From: an uncultured Clostridia bacterium
GTDB taxonomy: Bacteria > Bacillota > Clostridia > TANB77 > CAG-508
Assembly (NCBI GenBank): GCA_934148985.1
Contig: CAKPDO010000001.1
Coordinates: forward strand, 20,146-84,145
Reading direction: 5' to 3'
DNA: 64,000 bases
Part shown: piece by piece, positions 14,484 to 29,712 of the stretch
Position numbering within the stretch: the first letter of the stretch is position 1
How the letters are laid out: every line of letters starts with the position of its first letter
Program-made: the position numbers and the translations under genes
Notes under the pieces: generated by a model
Seen by the model: only the letters and a program-made list of their open reading frames with translations
Databases searched by the model: none
Told to the model about the DNA's origin: nothing

Positions 14484-14515
14484 AACAGGCATTATGCGGA
14501 TAATGCCTGTTTTTG
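14484..14515. terminator. bidirectional rho-independent terminator (12-bp stem AACAGGCATTAT / ATAATGCCTGTT, loop GCGG, A-tract 5' and T-tract 3')
   Basis: Perfect inverted repeat flanked by A6 and T5, seen directly. Confidence 0.8.
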
Positions 14516-14520
14516 CTATT

Positions 14521-14652
14521 TTAATGAAATACATCAAAAATAGCTTTAAGTACCTGAGCTATTTTCAAAATTATTTTTAAACAGTCTAAAATTTTATGTA
14601 GAAATTTTGCAATAACATTTGTACTTTTTTTCTTTTGCTTCGCTTTTCTCAA
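14521..14652 (-). CDS. small ORF for a 43-aa cationic amphipathic peptide (MRKAKQKKKSTNVIAKFLHKILDCLKIILKIAQVLKAIFDVFH), TTG start
   Basis: Strong RBS GGAGGTGA 8 nt before TTG; the stop abuts the 14484-14515 terminator; promoter-like TCGACA...TATAAT upstream. Missing from the ORF track because it is under 60 aa. Confidence 0.35.
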   Translation of the reverse strand: MRKAKQKKKSTNVIAKFLHKILDCLKIILKIAQVLKAIFDVFH

Positions 14653-14827
14653 AGAGATCACCTCCTTTCAATAAAGTCTATAAAGATTATATAACAAATT
14701 ATTTAAAAACTTTGTCGAAATCTGTCACAGAAAACAAAAATAGCCATAAATTAAAATATATAGGTAGTTGATAATTATCTGTTTTTGTGGTATAAAAGGA
14801 AATAATGAATATAGAGGAGGAAAGACA

Positions 14828-15280
14828 TTGAAAAATAAAACAATTATAATAATACTAGTAACTATTATTGCATTTATTGGAATAATTCTGTTTATTAATA
14901 TACAAAATGACTTAATAGCAAATAATACGAAAAAAGAATTGATAAATACCCAATTGCCTAACGATACAAAAATTATTGATTCAATATCAGTTGCTGGAAA
15001 ACTAACAGGTAATGGAAATGGAATGCAATATTTCGGTGCTATTTTAATAAAAACAGATATGTCAAAAGAAGAACTTGAAAGTTATTATAAAGATTACAGA
15101 AAGGATGATTGGAGCTTTTTAGTATCAAAGTATGATAATAATAAAATAGAGCAAATTGAACATGGAGATTATAAATTTAAAAAATATAATGAAAGTGATA
15201 AGGAAAAATATTTTATTGTTTATTCTTGGGGAAGTTCTAAAAATAGTTTCGTGAGTGAATTTGATTTGAGAGGGCATTAA
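14828..15280 (+). CDS. hypothetical membrane-anchored protein (single N-terminal TM, extracytoplasmic domain), TTG start
   Basis: RBS AGAGGAGGAAAG before TTG 14828; TM IIIILVTIIAFIGIILFI. Confidence 0.45.
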   Translation: MKNKTIIIILVTIIAFIGIILFINIQNDLIANNTKKELINTQLPNDTKIIDSISVAGKLTGNGNGMQYFGAILIKTDMSKEELESYYKDYRKDDWSFLVSKYDNNKIEQIEHGDYKFKKYNESDKEKYFIVYSWGSSKNSFVSEFDLRGH

Positions 15281-15340
15281 GTTTTAAAATAAGAAAAGTA
15301 TGACATATAGAAAAAATATAAGTATATGAGGTAGAAAAAA

Positions 15341-15865
15341 ATGATTGAAAATAATAAAGAGTATTTAGATATATTAGATATTAATGGTAATAAAATTGGC
15401 GTTAAGGAAAGAGAACAAGCAAGAAAGGATAAAGATATAGTTAAAATAGTATATTTATGGATTATAAATGAAAAAAATGAAATATTGCTACAAAAAAGGT
15501 CTTTAAACAAAAAATCAAATCCTAGTAAATGGGATTGTGCGGTTGCCGGTCACATACTTTCAGGTGAAACATCAATTGATGCAATAAAAAGAGAAGCTAA
15601 AGAAGAATTGAATTTAGATATAGATGTAAATAGCTTGAAACTTATTTATTCAGGAAAAGGTAATGATGGCAAGATCCAATTTCATGATGTTTTTTTATTG
15701 ATGAGTAATGTAGATATTAAAGAAATAAAGATACAAGAGGAAGAAGTGGAAAGTGTAAAATATTTTGATTTTAAGAAATTATTAGAAATATATACTTCTG
15801 GTGATTTTGCAAATGATTTTCATAATGATGAAGTTATGGAGCAACTAACTAACTTACTTTGTTAA
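15341..15865 (+). CDS. NUDIX hydrolase
   Basis: Nudix box GHILSGETSIDAIKREAKEELNL (GX5EX7REUXEEXGU pattern). Confidence 0.75.
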   Translation: MIENNKEYLDILDINGNKIGVKEREQARKDKDIVKIVYLWIINEKNEILLQKRSLNKKSNPSKWDCAVAGHILSGETSIDAIKREAKEELNLDIDVNSLKLIYSGKGNDGKIQFHDVFLLMSNVDIKEIKIQEEEVESVKYFDFKKLLEIYTSGDFANDFHNDEVMEQLTNLLC

Positions 15866-16112
15866 AAAGTGGTTAGTTAGTTGTTTTATTTATTAAATCG
15901 AAAAGTTATGTAAATTTATTTTGCTTCTTCATCGTCAACAATAGAATTTTGAATTGGCAAATTAAATAATAAAAAGTCAATGAGTTCAATCGATATGGCA
16001 GAATTAAGGTAGTAACTACTAAAGTTATTACCTTTTTTGTCAAGTTATAATACGATTGAAAAAACAGTTATTTCCAAAAATACTACAGTTATCTTAATAC
16101 TACACCAAAATA

Positions 16113-16141
16113 TTGCAATGAACAATAATCATTGCTATAAT
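16113..16141 (+). promoter_or_regulatory. sigma-A-type promoter (TTGCAA, 17 bp spacer, TATAAT) overlapping a 7-bp inverted repeat GCAATGA/TCATTGC
   Basis: Consensus hexamers with 17-nt spacing seen directly 22 nt upstream of the LytTR gene start. Confidence 0.55.
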
Positions 16142-16163
16142 AGTTTCAGGAGGTGTCAAAAAA

Positions 16164-16628
16164 GTGGAAATCAAAGTACGTACAAATATTTCAAATGAAT
16201 TTCAAAATATCGAAGTGTGCATAAATGCCCCCGAAAAAAATGAAGATGTACAGATGTTAGAAAATGAGCTATTATCAAGAAGTTCTAAATCAATAAAACA
16301 AATAATTGCTATGCAAAATAATGATATTTTTATAATTAATATATCAGATGTGATAGTATTTTTTAGTGAAGAAAAAAATAATTTTTGTAAAACAAAAGAT
16401 GGAGTTTATAAAATAAAAGAAAAATTATATTATCTTGAAGAAGTGCTTCCATCTAAAGATTTTATTAGAATATCTAATTCAGCAATTATAAATATAAATC
16501 ATGTAAAATGCTTTAATACAAGCATTATTGGAAAAATAATAGTTAAATTTAAAGATGGCAGTGAAGAAAGCGTTTCTAAAAGAAGAACATCGGAAATTAT
16601 GAAATTTTTAAAAAATAGGAGTGAATGA
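16164..16628 (+). CDS. LytTR-family DNA-binding protein (no receiver domain), GTG start
   Basis: C-terminal LytTR motif (DFIRISNSAIININHV...). First gene of a two-gene module with a downstream membrane protein; RBS AGGAGGTG. Confidence 0.7.
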   Translation: MEIKVRTNISNEFQNIEVCINAPEKNEDVQMLENELLSRSSKSIKQIIAMQNNDIFIINISDVIVFFSEEKNNFCKTKDGVYKIKEKLYYLEEVLPSKDFIRISNSAIININHVKCFNTSIIGKIIVKFKDGSEESVSKRRTSEIMKFLKNRSE

Positions 16629-17296
16629 TTATGGAAAAATTAAATTTTAAAACATTTTCAGTAAAAAAGTTATTGAAAACAATTTTATATACTGTTATAA
16701 TATCAGTATTCATAGGAACAACAACTTTATTTTTTATGGCAATTCTGGAAAATGTCCAACTAGAAATAATAAGTAACTTGGATGAAAATTCTGAAGCTTT
16801 AATTCAAATTGGAAAAGGCTATCAAGAATTAGCCAACGAAATTAATAAAGAAATTAATGAAGAAAAGAAAGCGTATGGAGAAGATTATCCAGCCGAAGGA
16901 ATATTTTTATATCAACTTATTGGTAAATTCTCAACAAACAGGATTGTACAAGTATATTCTGTAGCATTAACAATAGGTATTGTGTCAGGAATTATAATTT
17001 ACATAGTAGCAATTCAAAATACTTCAAAAAAACAAGTGATTATTGAATTAGCAATTGCATTTGTTGTATTAATTATATTAATAATGCTTTTTATTAATAA
17101 AGGATATGAAATTATCTTAAATAAGGCAATTAATAGTATAAATCCAACTAATGTACAATATAGTATACCTGAATATATAGATATTAAAGGCATGTTAATT
17201 GTTTATGTTGTGATTGCAGTAGTTACATATATTGTAAATATGATTAGACAAAAAGTGTTAACTAACAGGTTAAATAAACAATTAAATATTAAATAA
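16625..17296 (+). CDS. polytopic membrane protein, putative membrane antagonist of the LytTR regulator (HdrM/BrsM-like arrangement)
   Basis: 223 aa, 4-5 TM helices; start overlaps the LytTR stop (ATGA), indicating translational coupling. Confidence 0.5.
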   Translation: MIMEKLNFKTFSVKKLLKTILYTVIISVFIGTTTLFFMAILENVQLEIISNLDENSEALIQIGKGYQELANEINKEINEEKKAYGEDYPAEGIFLYQLIGKFSTNRIVQVYSVALTIGIVSGIIIYIVAIQNTSKKQVIIELAIAFVVLIILIMLFINKGYEIILNKAINSINPTNVQYSIPEYIDIKGMLIVYVVIAVVTYIVNMIRQKVLTNRLNKQLNIK

Positions 17297-17403
17297 ATTA
17301 ACTTAGTAGAAACGGAATAATTATTTTATTCAGTTTCTACTGTTGAATTAAAATGTAAAAAATTCAATATTTGAAAAAATATAATTAAAGAGGGGAAAAT
17401 AAA

Positions 17404-18294
17404 ATGAGTCTAATACTAAAAAATGTATCAAAATCATTCGCAGAGAAAAAAGCTGTAGACAATATTTCATTTAGTTTAACAAAACCAGGTGTATATGGTT
17501 TACTAGGAACTAATGGAGCAGGGAAAACAACAACAATTAGGATGTTACTTGGAATTATAAAAAAAGACAGTGGAGAAATTACATGGAAGGGCAAAAATGT
17601 AGATAGAAAGCATGTTAGGTTTGGATATTTACCAGAAGAAAGGGGAATATATCCAAAAACCAAAATAATTGAGCAATTAATGTATTTTGCAGAATTAAAA
17701 GGAATGAGAAAAGATGAAGCAATAAACTCAATAAACAAATGGGCTAAAGAACTAAAAGTAGAAGAATATTTACAAATGCCAGCTGAAAAATTATCTAAAG
17801 GAAATCAACAAAAAATACAGTTTATGACAGCAATTATACATAATCCAGAATTAATAGTATTAGATGAGCCATTTAGTGGACTAGACCCAGTTAATACAGA
17901 AATATTAAAAAACATTATAATTAATTTGGTAAAAAATGGAAAACACATAATAATGTCAGCACATCAAATGGCAACAATTGAGGAATTTTGTAGTGATATT
18001 TTAATATTGAATAAAGGAAAAACAGTATTACAAGGAAATTTAAAAGAAATAAAAGAAAAATATCCTGCAAATAGAGTAGAAATAGACGTAAAGCAAGACA
18101 TAAAAAATTATATCAAAGAATTTGAGTTAGAAATAGAAAATGAGACAAATAATAATTATATTATAAAAATATCAGATGAAGAAAAGGCTCATAAATTATT
18201 AAATAAGCTTGTTACAAGTGGGATTAATGTTGATAAATTTGAGATTAAGAAGCCTACATTAAATGATATTTTTCTAGAAAAGGTAGGTGAATAA
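17404..18294 (+). CDS. ABC transporter ATP-binding protein
   Basis: Walker A GTNGAGKTT, signature LSKGNQQK, Walker B ILDEP. Confidence 0.9.
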   Translation: MSLILKNVSKSFAEKKAVDNISFSLTKPGVYGLLGTNGAGKTTTIRMLLGIIKKDSGEITWKGKNVDRKHVRFGYLPEERGIYPKTKIIEQLMYFAELKGMRKDEAINSINKWAKELKVEEYLQMPAEKLSKGNQQKIQFMTAIIHNPELIVLDEPFSGLDPVNTEILKNIIINLVKNGKHIIMSAHQMATIEEFCSDILILNKGKTVLQGNLKEIKEKYPANRVEIDVKQDIKNYIKEFELEIENETNNNYIIKISDEEKAHKLLNKLVTSGINVDKFEIKKPTLNDIFLEKVGE

Positions 18295-18296
18295 TA

Positions 18297-19529
18297 ATGA
18301 GAGATATTTTTACGGTAATGAAATTTACAATGAAAGATATGGTTAAAAGAAAATCATTTTTAATATCAACATTAATTATTTTAATTTTAATAGTAATAGG
18401 TTTTAATGTACCAAATTTAATTAAAAAATTTAACGGAGATAATAACGGAAACAAATTATTAATAGTAGACAGTCAAAATATATTTGAGGGAACATTGGAA
18501 GATTTGAAACAAATGGATTTTGGATACGAATTTGAAATAACAAATGAGAATTTGAAATTTGAAGATGTAAAACAAAAAATAGAAGATAATAAAATAGAAG
18601 AAGCAATAATTATAAATCAAGAAGACGAAAAAATAAAGATATCATATGTTGTAAAAGACTCTACAATGATGAATGGCGTTCCTGAAGAAGTCATAAATGC
18701 TTTGACATCAATATATTCTAATTTAAAAATATCTAAATTAGGTTTAACAGAAGAACAGCTTAAATCAATTACTCCAAATTTTGAATTTAATTTACAACAA
18801 ACAGAGGCAAAGAGTGCAAGTGGAAATATTTTTGCAATGATGCTAATGTCGATTGTATTATTTTATGCAATATATTTTTGTGCATATCAAGTATCAAGTT
18901 CGATAACCACAGAAAAAACTTCAAAAATAATAGAAACATTAGTAACATCAACAACTCCAAAAACAATAGTGCTTGGAAAAACAATAGGAATTGGTGTAGT
19001 AGGTTTGGTTCAAATGATAGTAATTACAGTAACAGCTTTAATAAGTGCAAAGGCATTTTTAGAGCCAGAATTATTAGAAAATGTTTTAGATATGTCTAAT
19101 ATTACACCATATTTAGGAATAATGACCGCAATATATTTTATATTAGGTTATTTGTCATATGCGTTGTTATATGCACTAACAGGTTCTACAGTAAGCAAAC
19201 CGGAAGATATACAGTCAGCCAATTCGCCTGTTGCAATATTAGCAGTAATTGGATTTTATTTATCATATTTTACTATGATGAATCCTACAAGTGAACTTAA
19301 TGTTTTTGCTTCATTATTTCCAATATCATCACCATTTTGCATGCCATTTAGAATTATGATGGGATTGGCAAGCAAAACAGATGTTATAATGTCAATTGCA
19401 ATTTTATTTGTTACAATAATTGTTATTGCTCATGTTGCTATAAAAATATATTCAAATGCAATACTTAATTATGGCACTAAAATGGGTATTAGGGATATTG
19501 TAAAGATGTATAAGGGGAATGAAAATTAA
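18297..19529 (+). CDS. ABC-2 family transporter permease
   Basis: 410 aa; N-terminal TM, large extracytoplasmic loop, 5 C-terminal TM helices; adjacent to the ATPase. Confidence 0.75.
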   Translation: MRDIFTVMKFTMKDMVKRKSFLISTLIILILIVIGFNVPNLIKKFNGDNNGNKLLIVDSQNIFEGTLEDLKQMDFGYEFEITNENLKFEDVKQKIEDNKIEEAIIINQEDEKIKISYVVKDSTMMNGVPEEVINALTSIYSNLKISKLGLTEEQLKSITPNFEFNLQQTEAKSASGNIFAMMLMSIVLFYAIYFCAYQVSSSITTEKTSKIIETLVTSTTPKTIVLGKTIGIGVVGLVQMIVITVTALISAKAFLEPELLENVLDMSNITPYLGIMTAIYFILGYLSYALLYALTGSTVSKPEDIQSANSPVAILAVIGFYLSYFTMMNPTSELNVFASLFPISSPFCMPFRIMMGLASKTDVIMSIAILFVTIIVIAHVAIKIYSNAILNYGTKMGIRDIVKMYKGNEN

Positions 19530-19578
19530 AAAATTAAAGATTTATATAAGAATTTAAAGTTTTGAGGAGGCCAAAAAA

Positions 19579-20181
19579 TTGAAAATACTATTTGCAACAA
19601 CGAATCCAGCAAAAGTAAAAAAATATGCTGAGAGATTAAAAGAAAAAAATATAGAAGTTTTAACTATTAAAGATTTAGGAATAAATTTAAAACCTGAAGA
19701 AACAGGAAAGGATGCTATAGAAAATGCATATATCAAGGCAAAAGCATATTATGACAAAACTAAAATCGTAACTATAGGCATGGATAATAATTTATACATA
19801 GATAAATTACCAGAAGAAAAGCAACCAGGAACTCATGTAAGAAGAGTAAATGGAAAAGAATTAAATGATGATGAAATGATTGAATATTATTGCAATTTAG
19901 TTAAAGAATATGGCGGAAAGCTAGATGCTAAATGGGTATATGGAATGGTAATATATGATGGAAAAGAACCAAAAGAATACAGTTGGAGTAAAAGTCATTT
20001 TTATTTTGTGGACAAACCTTGCAAAAAAAGAAACATAGGTTATCCATTGGATTCAATGTCAATTATGCCTGAATGTAATAAGTATTTTGTAGATTTGACG
20101 GAAGAAGATAGAAATAGAAGTAAACAGAATTATAATGAAGATGATGTTATTGATTTTATAGTGAACAATTGTGGAAATTGA
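19579..20181 (+). CDS. non-canonical purine NTP pyrophosphatase, RdgB/HAM1 family (TTG start)
   Basis: MKILFATTNPAKVKKY...EETGKDAIENAYIKAKA...PGTHVRR matches Ham1 motifs; RBS GAGGAGG. Confidence 0.6.
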   Translation: MKILFATTNPAKVKKYAERLKEKNIEVLTIKDLGINLKPEETGKDAIENAYIKAKAYYDKTKIVTIGMDNNLYIDKLPEEKQPGTHVRRVNGKELNDDEMIEYYCNLVKEYGGKLDAKWVYGMVIYDGKEPKEYSWSKSHFYFVDKPCKKRNIGYPLDSMSIMPECNKYFVDLTEEDRNRSKQNYNEDDVIDFIVNNCGN

Positions 20182-20204
20182 TATAAAAATAGAAAAGAAA
20201 ATTT

Positions 20205-20906
20205 TTGAAGGAGATGAAGATTTTGAAAGAATATAAATATATATTTTTTGATTTTGATGGCACAATAGTTAATACAATAAATGGGACAAGAGAGTCTGCT
20301 TTATATGCATTAAATTATTTTGGAATAAATGAAAATGATAATAAAGATCTAGGAAGGATTTTTTGTGGGCCTCCTTTAAAAGAATCATTTAGTAAATATA
20401 ATTTAACAGATAAACAAATTGAAAAAGCAATTATGCTCTATAGAGATTTTCAAGCGAATAATACAATAGAATGTAATGAAATTTATGATGGAATAAAAGA
20501 AATGTTACAAGAATTGAAAGAAAACGGAAAGAAGTGTTATATAGTAACTTCTAAACTAGAAGAAACAGCTAAAAAGATTTTGCGATTTTTTGGGATTTTT
20601 GATTATTTTGATTTAATTGTGGGGGCAACTAGTGATGGATGCAGAAATCAAAAAAACGAAGTGATAAAATATGCAATTGAAAATATTAAAAAATATAATT
20701 CGGAAAATGCTATAATGATAGGAGATAGACCATCAGATATAAAAGCTGGTATTTTAAATAATATGGATACAATAGGAGTATTATATGGAATGGATACAAA
20801 AGAAAATCTTAGTGATGCAGGTGCAACATATTTAATAAATACACCTAAAAAAATTATAGAAATAGTAGATAGAGCGCGAAAAGCAAATGTAGAAAATAAT
20901 TTATAG
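20205..20906 (+). CDS. HAD-superfamily hydrolase (phosphoglycolate phosphatase-like)
   Basis: FFDFDGTIVNT motif I; TSK motif II; GDRPSDI motif IV. Start is either TTG 20205 or ATG 20214. Confidence 0.75.
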   Translation: MKEMKILKEYKYIFFDFDGTIVNTINGTRESALYALNYFGINENDNKDLGRIFCGPPLKESFSKYNLTDKQIEKAIMLYRDFQANNTIECNEIYDGIKEMLQELKENGKKCYIVTSKLEETAKKILRFFGIFDYFDLIVGATSDGCRNQKNEVIKYAIENIKKYNSENAIMIGDRPSDIKAGILNNMDTIGVLYGMDTKENLSDAGATYLINTPKKIIEIVDRARKANVENNL

Positions 20907-28425: not shown

Positions 28426-29712
28426 TTATTTTTTAGGACTAATCTTCTCAAGTCCACCCATGTAAGGTCTTAAAACTTCTGGGATAATAACACTACCATC
28501 AGGCTGATAATTATTTTCCATAACGGCAATTAGCATTCTAGGTGGGGCAACAACTGTGTTATTTAAAGTATGAGCATAATAATTTTCTTTTTCACCTTTA
28601 ATTCTAATTCCAAGTCTACGAGCTTGTGCATCTGTTAAGTTTGAACAGCTTCCAACTTCGAAATATTTCTTTTGACGAGGAGACCATGCTTCAACATCGC
28701 AAGATTTTGCTTTTAAATCAGCTAAATCACCACTGCAACATTCTAGAGTTCTAACAGGAATATTCATACTTCTAAATAATTCAACTGTATATGACCACAT
28801 TTTATCATACCAATTCCAGCTGTCTTCTGGTTCACAAACAACTATCATTTCTTGTTTTTCAAATTGATGGATTCTGTAAACACCACGTTCTTCTATACCA
28901 TGAGCACCTTTTTCTTTTCTAAAACATGGAGAATAAGATGTCATTGTGTAAGGCATTTTTGATTTATCTAATATTTGGTCTTTAAATTTACCAATCATTG
29001 AGTGTTCAGATGTTCCAATTAAATACAAATCTTCTCCTTCGATTTTGTACATCATTGCGTCCATTTCTTCAAAACTCATAACGCCTGTAACAACATTTGA
29101 ACGAATCATAAAAGGAGGTATACAATATGTAAATCCTTTATTTATCATAAAATCTCTAGCATAAGTAAGTACGGCCGAATGCAATCTTGCAACATCTCCC
29201 ATTAAATAATAAAAACCGTTTCCAGCAACACGACGTGCACTATCTAGGTCAAGACCACCTAAAGCTTCCATAATTTCTCCATGATATGGAATTTCGTAAT
29301 CTGGAACGACAGGTTCACCATATTTTTGAATTTCTACATTTTTGCTATCATCTTCTCCTATTGGAACTGATGGGTGCATTATGTTTGGAATTTTCATCAT
29401 TCTTGATTTTATTTCTTCAGATAATTCATTTTCTAGTGCTTCATTTTCTTCTAGTCTTGTATTTATTTCTTGAACTTTTTGTTTTATTTCTTCTGCTTTT
29501 TCTTTTTCACCATTTTTCATTAAATTACCTATTTGGTTACTTAAAGTTTTTCTTTCGCTACGCAAATTATCACCATTTAATTTTGCTTCACGACTTTTTT
29601 TGTCTAGGTCAATTACTTCATCTACTAATACTAATTTTTTATCTTGAAATTTTTTCTTGATATTTTCCTTTACAATATCAGGATGCTCTCTTAAAAATTT
29701 TATATCTATCAT
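28426..29712 (-). CDS. serS: serine--tRNA ligase
   Basis: N-terminal coiled coil; class II core (FRKEKGAHGIEERGVYRIHQFEKQEM ... ECCSGDLADLKAKSCDVEAWSP ... SCSNLTDAQARR). Confidence 0.9.
   Translation of the reverse strand: MIDIKFLREHPDIVKENIKKKFQDKKLVLVDEVIDLDKKSREAKLNGDNLRSERKTLSNQIGNLMKNGEKEKAEEIKQKVQEINTRLEENEALENELSEEIKSRMMKIPNIMHPSVPIGEDDSKNVEIQKYGEPVVPDYEIPYHGEIMEALGGLDLDSARRVAGNGFYYLMGDVARLHSAVLTYARDFMINKGFTYCIPPFMIRSNVVTGVMSFEEMDAMMYKIEGEDLYLIGTSEHSMIGKFKDQILDKSKMPYTMTSYSPCFRKEKGAHGIEERGVYRIHQFEKQEMIVVCEPEDSWNWYDKMWSYTVELFRSMNIPVRTLECCSGDLADLKAKSCDVEAWSPRQKKYFEVGSCSNLTDAQARRLGIRIKGEKENYYAHTLNNTVVAPPRMLIAVMENNYQPDGSVIIPEVLRPYMGGLEKISPKK

What the first reader, a model, noticed from the sequence alone, without database searches (positions are those of the whole stretch)
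16107..17296. LytTR-only regulator translationally coupled to a polytopic membrane protein, an LRS-like (HdrRM/BrsRM-type) module
The 154-aa protein has a C-terminal LytTR DNA-binding domain but no receiver domain. Its stop overlaps the start of a 223-aa membrane protein with 4-5 TM helices (ATGA). In the streptococcal LytTR regulatory systems HdrRM and BrsRM (established knowledge) the membrane protein antagonises the regulator. The promoter at 16113-16141 overlaps a 7-bp inverted repeat (GCAATGA...TCATTGC) that could serve as an autoregulatory operator. Such modules often control bacteriocin, competence or stress genes.
Basis: partly seen in the sequence, partly recalled or inferred. Interest (0 to 1): 0.55.

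Follow-up and report, generated by a model that had tools for sequence, protein, structure and literature searches.

The report
LytTR regulator with membrane-protein partner module

Summary
Both genes are real. The regulator (16164-16628, 154 aa) has a LytTR domain and no receiver domain. A 4-helix membrane protein (221-223 aa) starts 2 nt after, or overlapping, the regulator's stop codon.

The pair is conserved as a unit in 9 other lineages of uncultured gut Clostridia. The regulator is 61-88% identical across them and the membrane protein 28-67%.

Such repeats occur about once per 296 bp in this window, and it is absent from all six other lineages checked.

It matches the published consensus for LytTR regulatory systems (LRS; ACCACTTAY, 9-12-9). 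The same ungapped layout recurs in 10 lineages.

Two features depart from described LRS:
- The repeats lie 20 bp from the -35 element, not about 10 bp.
- The membrane protein belongs to no Pfam family. It resembles DUF3021 only in its last helix and C-terminal tail.

The downstream ABC-2 transporter is a neighbour only in this species. Sister strains carry a 259-bp deletion that destroys the regulator.

Verdict: an LRS-type module, probably positively autoregulated. It is a new variant of a known kind and of modest interest. Inhibition and autoregulation are inferred, not shown.

The parts
16006..16034 (+). Terminator-like hairpin with a T-run. It probably ends the upstream NUDIX transcript and marks the 5' boundary of the module.
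   Evidence: 12-pair stem followed by TTTTGTC.
16063..16071 (+). Direct repeat 1 (AACAGTTAT), proposed distal half-site for the LytTR regulator.
   Evidence: It occupies a conserved position in 10 lineages and matches the LRS consensus ACCACTTAY of PMC6193735.
16084..16092 (+). Direct repeat 2 (TACAGTTAT), proposed proximal half-site. It lies 12 bp after repeat 1 and 20 bp before the -35 element.
   Evidence: This is the only perfect paired site in the 64-kb window.
16113..16118 (+). -35 hexamer, TTGCAA.
   Evidence: Conserved as TTGnAA at a fixed distance from the repeats and from the -10 element.
16133..16141 (+). Extended -10 element, TGcTATAAT.
   Evidence: Column conservation of the hexamer is 0.98 across 7 lineages.
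16115..16135 (.). Judged not to be a functional element.
   Evidence: Present at background frequency of one per 296 bp. Complementarity falls to 2-4 of 7 positions in six other lineages, and to 6 of 7 in same-species strains.
16148..16153 (+). Shine-Dalgarno sequence AGGAGG of the regulator gene. It starts only 6 nt after the -10 hexamer.
   Evidence: Read directly from the sequence. The same layout occurs in relatives.
16164..16628 (+). LytTR-only transcription regulator, 154 aa, GTG start. It has a conserved 53-aa N-terminal region followed by the LytTR domain (residues 54-149).
16631..17296 (+). Four-helix membrane protein, 221 aa (223 aa if it starts at ATG 16625), the proposed membrane inhibitor or sensor. 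Predicted topology is N-in/C-in with a roughly 65-aa outward loop carrying the motif YGEDYPAEG. It has a GxxxG motif in the second helix and a conserved C-terminal tail, RQKvLTNrLNKQLN.
17304..17342 (+). Strong RNA hairpin just after the membrane-protein gene. It may act as a partial terminator or a 3' stabiliser. It has no T-run.
   Evidence: region energy -20.3 kcal/mol, z-score -4.3. The terminator scan did not call it.
17404..19529 (+). Neighbouring ABC-2 transporter: DrrA-like ATPase (17404-18294) and ABC-2 permease (18297-19529). It may be read through from the module promoter in this species, but it is not a conserved part of the module.
   Evidence: Domains. The adjacency is seen only in same-species contigs and is absent in 9 other lineages.

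Best explanation
This is a two-gene LytTR regulatory system (LRS).

Proposed mechanism:
- The promoter TTGCAA-17-TGcTATAAT (16113-16141) drives the regulator gene and the tightly juxtaposed membrane-protein gene.
- The 154-aa regulator binds the two 9-bp direct repeats (16063-71 and 16084-92, 21 bp start to start) and activates its own operon.
- The membrane protein holds the regulator inactive at the membrane through its conserved cytoplasmic N-tail, short cytoplasmic loop and C-terminal tail. The tail carries the K-x4-LN-x2-L motif shared with DUF3021 partners.
- A cue sensed by the variable outward loops, or in the membrane, releases the regulator and sets off positive feedback.

Shown here: the gene pair, its domains, its conservation as a unit, and the conserved repeat-promoter geometry.

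Inferred by analogy with the S. mutans systems HdrRM and BrsRM and three others (PMC6193735): regulator binding to the repeats, activation, inhibition by the membrane protein, and signal release.

The signal and any regulon outside the operon are unknown.
For: - Regulator domains: LytTR domain with no receiver.
- Regulator homology: it aligns nearly end to end (residues 3-140, N-terminal region included), at 30% identity and pairwise E 5e-26, with a Bacillus LytTR regulator that is paired with a true DUF3021 protein.
- Conserved gene pair: the regulator directly precedes the membrane protein in all 7 genome loci and in all metagenome loci examined. The stop-to-start gap is 1-2 nt and a Shine-Dalgarno sequence sits in the regulator's last codons.
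- Conserved cis-architecture: the ungapped layout repeat(9)-12-repeat(9)-20-(-35)-17-(-10) is found in 10 lineages. The repeat, -35 and -10 columns are more conserved than the other segments (0.81-0.98 versus 0.50-0.73).
- Match to the published consensus: the repeat consensus nnC[AG][CG]TTAT(C) matches ACCACTTAY-12 bp-ACCACTTAY, the LRS consensus.
- Independent loci: a weight matrix built from these sites finds one strong paired site per locus, always just upstream of the LytTR gene. This includes four untrained LytTR plasmid loci, three with an annotated DUF3021 partner (L025, L027, L028) and one (L029) with no partner annotated. Shuffled windows give 0-3 hits.
- Membrane protein conservation: predicted cytoplasmic segments are its most conserved parts and the outward loops its least. 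The regulator is far more conserved than its partner.
- Link to DUF3021: the last helix and C-tail align with DUF3021 at 84.7% probability (E 6.7e-6), and the invariant Asn residues of the two families coincide, N217 with N143.
Against: - No experiment or transcript data exist. The transcription start, regulator binding, activation and inhibition are all inferred.
- The repeats lie 20 bp from the -35 element, not the 4-11 bp reported for LRS, so the activation geometry may differ.
- The membrane protein is not a DUF3021 or DUF2154 member at Pfam thresholds.
- The profile match to DUF3021 covers only 36 columns that include a transmembrane helix, and such matches can be compositional.
- An exact 8-bp direct repeat at a 20-22 bp period is not rare on its own: 19 occur in the window. 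The case therefore rests on conservation.
- Sister strains have deleted the regulator's 5' half, so the system is dispensable in this species.
Confidence: 0.72

Rival explanations
1. This is a four-gene LRS-plus-ABC operon, like S. mutans SMU_433/434, SMU_1070c/1069c or Listeria lmo0984-0987. On this reading the regulator and membrane protein control, and perhaps sense through, the downstream DrrA-like ATPase and ABC-2 permease. The main output would be export of, or resistance to, a membrane-active compound.
For: - The ABC genes follow on the same strand after 107 bp, with no convincing promoter of their own.
- The arrangement is kept in all same-species contigs.
- PMC6193735 reports a conserved LRS-ABC linkage for two S. 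mutans LRS types and for Listeria.
Against: - None of 9 other lineages carrying this regulator-membrane protein pair has a co-directional ABC-2 transporter downstream. Their flanks are unrelated to one another.
- A strong hairpin follows the membrane-protein gene.
- No repeat site lies upstream of the ABC genes.
Confidence: 0.2
2. One reading: the regulator, or another protein, binds the inverted repeat GCAATGA-N7-TCATTGC that overlaps the -35 element and the promoter spacer. This would make it a negative autoregulatory operator.
For: The repeat is perfect (7 of 7) and sits inside the promoter.
Against: - Such repeats occur about once per 296 bp in this AT-rich window.
- Complementarity falls to 2-4 of 7 positions in six other lineages whose regulators are 60-88% identical.
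- It is already 6 of 7 in same-species strains.
- LytTR proteins characteristically recognise direct repeats, not inverted repeats (PMC6193735).
Confidence: 0.04
3. The pair is accessory cargo of mobile DNA rather than a sensory system. For example, the LytTR protein could control a small membrane effector (holin-like, toxic or exclusion protein). In this species it may be decaying.
For: - The module often sits beside integrases, a serine recombinase, phage-like genes or conjugation genes.
- The regulator matches a phage protein family, phrog_34833, over its full length.
- Sister strains have lost the regulator's 5' half.
Against: - The membrane protein has no relatives in IMG/VR, and the regulator has no match in 50,697 phage records.
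- There are no meaningful defence-system hits.
- In the window the flanks are housekeeping genes.
- Strong purifying conservation of the regulator and of the membrane protein's cytoplasmic face fits a regulator-partner interaction.
Confidence: 0.06

Closest known systems
S. mutans HdrRM and BrsRM, two-gene LytTR regulatory systems (PMC6193735)
   Same: - A soluble regulator of about 150 aa with a LytTR domain and no receiver domain.
- A membrane-protein gene immediately downstream in a two-gene operon.
- Two 9-bp direct repeats, 12 bp apart, upstream of an extended -10 promoter.
   Different: - The membrane partner is neither DUF2154 (HdrM) nor DUF3021 at Pfam thresholds.
- The repeats lie 20 bp from the -35 element, not 4-11 bp.
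- The hosts are uncultured low-GC gut Clostridia.
- Inhibition, autoregulation and the regulon have not been tested here.
LytTR + DUF3021 pairs of the Bacillus cereus group and lactobacillus plasmids (loci L025-L028; the B. cereus example is in Table 3 of PMC6193735)
   Same: - The regulators are homologous along nearly the whole length (30-32% identity).
- The repeat sequences are nearly the same, for example GACAGTTAT-12-ACCACTTAC in L026.
- The partner's last helix and its K..LN..L tail align, and the invariant Asn residues coincide.
   Different: - DUF3021 partners are 134-151 aa with short loops. This partner is 221 aa with a roughly 65-aa outward loop, and it scores below the Pfam cut-off (15.6 versus 24.7 bits even for the family consensus).
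- The repeats lie 10 bp from the -35 element in those loci and 20 bp here.
LRS operons linked to ABC transporters (SMU_433/434, SMU_1070c/1069c, Listeria lmo0984-0987)
   Same: In this species the module is followed by an ABC ATPase and permease on the same strand.
   Different: The linkage is not conserved in any other lineage that carries this module.
ECF sigma factor / membrane anti-sigma factor pairs
   Same: The logic is the same, by analogy only: a small membrane-anchored inhibitor encoded next to the transcription factor it sequesters, with positive autoregulation.
   Different: The regulator is a DNA-binding LytTR protein, not a sigma factor.
LytTR response regulators of two-component systems (AgrA, ComE, LytR)
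   Same: They share the LytTR DNA-binding domain and recognise 9-bp direct repeats with a 12-bp spacer.
   Different: There is no receiver domain here and no neighbouring histidine kinase.

Membership tests
LytTR regulatory system (LRS; Zou et al. 2018, PMC6193735) | The regulator has a LytTR DNA-binding domain and lacks a receiver domain. | tested here: met
   Pfam LytTR covers residues 54-149 (E 1.6e-18). Only 53 aa lie N-terminal to it. No receiver domain is found in Pfam or NCBIfam.
LytTR regulatory system (LRS; Zou et al. 2018, PMC6193735) | A gene for a non-enzymatic transmembrane protein lies immediately downstream of the regulator in the same operon. | tested here: met
   The partner has four hydrophobic helices and no enzymatic or transporter domain. 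The gap or overlap is 2 nt. The pairing is conserved in every related locus examined.
LytTR regulatory system (LRS; Zou et al. 2018, PMC6193735) | Two direct repeats of about 9 bp, separated by 11-13 bp, lie upstream of the operon promoter. | tested here: met
   AACAGTTAT-12 bp-TACAGTTAT at 16063-16092. The element is conserved in 10 lineages and resembles the published consensus.
LytTR regulatory system (LRS; Zou et al. 2018, PMC6193735) | The repeats lie 4-11 bp (typically 10 bp) upstream of the -35 hexamer. | tested here: not met
   The distance is 20 bp to the conserved TTGnAA-17-TGnTATAAT promoter in the lineages examined, and 21 bp in L015 if the better hexamer is used. No credible promoter lies at the 10-bp position. 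The transcription start has not been mapped.
LytTR regulatory system (LRS; Zou et al. 2018, PMC6193735) | The membrane protein inhibits the regulator, so that deleting it induces the operon. | not testable with these tools
   This needs genetics or a reporter assay. The only indirect support is that the predicted cytoplasmic face is the most conserved part of the protein.
LytTR regulatory system (LRS; Zou et al. 2018, PMC6193735) | The operon is positively autoregulated by its own regulator. | not testable with these tools
   Inferred only from the position of the repeats upstream of the promoter.
DUF3021 (PF11457), the commonest LRS membrane partner | The protein scores above the Pfam gathering threshold of 24.7 bits. 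| tested here: not met
   The window protein gives no hit. Three of 41 family members give weak hits, best E 0.013. The family consensus scores 15.6 bits, E 0.019.
DUF3021 (PF11457), the commonest LRS membrane partner | Homology extends over the whole four-helix domain. | tested here: inconclusive
   Profile-profile comparison gives 84.7% probability (E 6.7e-6), but only over 36 columns covering the last helix and C-tail. The weak Pfam consensus hit spans the whole profile only by allowing a large insertion.
Two-component LytTR response regulator (AgrA/ComE/LytR type) | An N-terminal receiver domain with a phospho-acceptor Asp, plus a cognate histidine kinase. | tested here: not met
   No receiver domain is present. 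The NCBIfam LytR and BtsR matches cover only the C-terminal DNA-binding part and score far below cut-off. No kinase is encoded among the neighbours.
ABC-linked LRS (SMU_433/434, SMU_1070c/1069c, lmo0984-0987 types) | The LRS pair is linked to ABC transporter genes in a conserved way. | tested here: not met
   The ABC-2 transporter is adjacent only in this species. It is absent downstream in 9 other lineages.

The most novel reading that the evidence does not exclude
This is a previously unrecognised LRS subtype confined to uncultured low-GC gut Clostridia.
- It has a new four-helix partner family: about 112 clusters among 1.84 billion, no Pfam family and no structural match in the PDB. Its roughly 65-aa outward loop, carrying the motif YGEDYPAEG, would be the sensor.
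- The activator site sits one helical turn further upstream than in all described LRS.
- The only element shared with DUF3021 partners is the last helix plus the K-x4-LN-x2-L tail with an invariant Asn. That tail could be the general docking element through which LRS membrane inhibitors hold LytTR regulators.
Probability: 0.3. Interest if true: 0.5.

Novelty: new variant of a known kind. Interest (0 to 1): 0.33.

Why it matters
LRS are a widespread but barely studied class of signalling system. Experimental work is essentially limited to S. mutans.

This locus extends the class to uncultured gut Clostridia and adds a partner protein family that domain-based searches would miss, because the published survey filtered on DUF3021 or DUF2154. 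It also shows that the repeat-to-promoter distance can be 20 bp.

The shared C-terminal tail motif gives a concrete and cheap hypothesis for how membrane inhibitors dock LytTR regulators. It can be tested by tail truncation or an N217A substitution.

The regulator-deleted allele found in sister strains is a ready-made comparison for metatranscriptomic data.

None of this overturns current understanding. It refines an existing class.

Tried and rejected
- **Inverted-repeat operator.** Rejected: it occurs at background frequency and is not conserved.
- **Repeat AATACTACA x2 (16079 and 16096, 8-bp spacer).** It overlaps direct repeat 2 and is not kept in relatives, so it is treated as a by-product.
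- **Extra AGTTAT copies at 16020 and 16040.** Species-specific. The first lies in the upstream terminator stem, and the weight-matrix scan does not pick them up.
- **Alternative promoter 10 bp after repeat 2, the published LRS geometry.** The hexamers there are poor in all lineages (read).
- **Second regulator target in the window.** Only a chance-level hit at 28815, which lies inside an ORF on the other strand.
- **Structure of the regulator.** The AlphaFold model failed (pLDDT 39).
- **Fold search with the membrane-protein model.** No PDB match with E below 1.
- **Defence-system library and phage searches.** Nothing meaningful: no phage records and no IMG/VR relatives.
- **Rfam scan of 14500-20500.** No RNA family matched.
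- **Paralogues in the window.** None found.
- **Solved structures.** Only a LytTR domain from structural genomics, 3d6w (E 2e-5).

Full report
**What is there**

The window has 27.8% G+C. Two same-strand ORFs sit at the reported place.

The first is 16164-16628, 154 aa, with a GTG start and an AGGAGG Shine-Dalgarno sequence at 16148-53. Pfam places a LytTR domain at residues 54-149 (E 1.6e-18). Nothing else is found in Pfam or NCBIfam, and the N-terminal 53 aa are too short for a receiver domain.

The second ORF is 16625/16631-17296, 223 or 221 aa. It has four hydrophobic segments. The AlphaFold model is all-helical, with pLDDT 74.7. It matches no Pfam or NCBIfam family and no transporter family, and the model has no PDB fold match.

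An ATGA overlap does exist at 16625-28. However, the Shine-Dalgarno AGGAG at 16617-21 is 3 nt from that ATG and 9 nt from the in-frame ATG at 16631. Homologues and gene callers use the position of 16631. The genes are therefore probably 2 nt apart, and relatives have gaps of 1-2 nt.

**Neighbourhood**

Upstream lie a NUDIX gene and a terminator-like hairpin at 16006-34. Downstream lie a strong hairpin at 17304-42, then a DrrA-like ABC ATPase, an ABC-2 permease and a Ham1-like gene.

**Relatives**

The membrane-protein family is rare. It has 60 proteins among 5.8 billion and 112 cluster representatives among 1.84 billion, none with a Pfam domain.

All 7 genome loci come from MAGs of uncultured Clostridia, from human gut and sheep rectum samples. 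In every locus examined the LytTR gene directly precedes the membrane-protein gene.

The regulator is 61-88% identical across these loci, including its N-terminal region. The membrane protein is only 28-67% identical.

Flanking genes differ from lineage to lineage. They include integrases, a serine recombinase, phage-like genes, conjugation genes and ordinary housekeeping genes. The ABC-2 transporter is adjacent only in contigs of the window's own species. The conserved unit is therefore the two-gene pair.

**The cis-element**

But perfect 7-bp inverted repeats with short loops occur 216 times in the window, about one per 296 bp. In six other lineages only 2-4 of the 7 positions remain complementary.

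What is conserved, without any gaps, in 10 lineages is this layout:

- a 9-bp repeat
- 12 bp
- a second 9-bp repeat
- 20 bp
- TTGnAA (-35)
- 17 bp
- TGnTATAAT (extended -10)
- about 20 bp
- the start codon

In the window the repeats are AACAGTTAT (16063-71) and TACAGTTAT (16084-92). This is the only perfect paired site in the 64 kb.

The family consensus, nnC[AG][CG]TTAT(C), matches the ACCACTTAY-12 bp-ACCACTTAY consensus tabulated for LRS operons (PMC6193735). A weight matrix built from these half-sites finds one strong pair per locus, always just upstream of the LytTR gene. This includes four untrained LytTR plasmid loci from lactobacilli and Tetragenococcus, three of them (L025, L027, L028) with an annotated DUF3021 partner. 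Shuffled windows give 0-3 hits.

**Comparison with known LRS**

Plasmid and Bacillus loci found with the regulator carry a LytTR gene followed by a true DUF3021 gene. Their regulators align with this one nearly end to end, over residues 3-140 (30% identity, E 5e-26).

Their repeats are near-identical in sequence, but lie 10 bp from the -35 element. That agrees with the published 4-11 bp. This family uses 20 bp, one further helical turn.

The membrane partner fails DUF3021 at Pfam thresholds. Even the family consensus scores only 15.6 bits against a cut-off of 24.7.

A profile-profile comparison with a 26-sequence DUF3021 alignment gives 84.7% probability (E 6.7e-6). It covers only the last helix and the C-terminal tail. 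There the (nearly) invariant Asn residues of the two families, N217 and N143, coincide.

Within the family, the predicted cytoplasmic N-tail, short cytoplasmic loop and C-tail are the most conserved regions. The outward loops are the least conserved.

**Mechanism**

The steps below are inferred, not shown. The regulator binds the direct repeats and activates its own operon. The membrane protein sequesters the regulator through its conserved cytoplasmic face. A cue acting on the variable outward loops or on the membrane releases the regulator. This follows the experimentally established behaviour of five S. mutans LRS. I put confidence at about 0.7.

The main rival is that the ABC-2 transporter is a functional part of the module in this species, at about 0.2. 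The gene order and the lack of an obvious separate promoter support it. The lack of conservation elsewhere and the intervening hairpin count against it.

**Other observations**

- Sister-strain contigs at about 96.5% nucleotide identity lack window 16142-16400. That deletion removes the Shine-Dalgarno sequence, the start codon and codons 1-79 of the regulator.
- The same contigs carry a 1.7-kb insertion at window 15946. The intact haplotype is also found in other samples.
- The Shine-Dalgarno sequence lies only 6-7 nt after the -10 hexamer in most lineages, which implies a very short leader.

**Verdict**

The LRS assignment is supported. The locus is a new variant of a known kind: a new partner family and a shifted activator site. 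Interest is modest.

Noticed in passing
window 16142-16400 and 15946; loci L008-L011, L022-L023 versus L018-L020: Sister-strain contigs (about 96.5% nucleotide identity) carry a 259-bp deletion. It removes the Shine-Dalgarno sequence, the start codon and codons 1-79 of the LytTR gene but keeps the repeats, the promoter and the membrane-protein gene. The same contigs have a 1.7-kb insertion at window 15946, carrying an HTH_26 gene and a 465-aa protein with a faint Glug match. The intact window-type haplotype occurs in other samples.
   Followed up: partly
window 16136-16153; same position in L001, L002, L003, L012, L015, L030-L032: The AGGAGG Shine-Dalgarno sequence begins only 6-9 nt (mostly 6-7) after the -10 hexamer. 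The mRNA would therefore start at or just before the Shine-Dalgarno sequence. This is conserved in 9 of 10 lineages. The transcription start has not been mapped.
   Followed up: no
window 15341-15865: The NUDIX gene upstream of the module is present in some same-species contigs (L011, L018-L020) and absent in others (L008-L010, L022). This stretch of the chromosome is a hotspot of strain variation.
   Followed up: no
window 16164-16628: The regulator matches the phage protein family phrog_34833 over its full length (E 9e-17). However, tblastn against 50,697 phage records found nothing, and the membrane partner has no relative in IMG/VR.
   Followed up: partly
L001, L015-L017, L031: In other lineages the two-gene module sits beside a serine recombinase, tyrosine integrases, phage-like genes or conjugative type IV secretion genes. 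This suggests it often lies in mobile or variable DNA.
   Followed up: no
window 16978-16992 (membrane protein residues 118-122): G118 and G122, in the second transmembrane helix, are the only invariant residues across 41 diverse family members. They form a GxxxG motif, which suggests helix-helix packing or dimerisation.
   Followed up: no
window 17304-17342: A 16-pair RNA hairpin follows the membrane-protein gene (region z-score -4.3) but has no T-run. Its role as terminator, attenuator or stabiliser is undetermined.
   Followed up: partly
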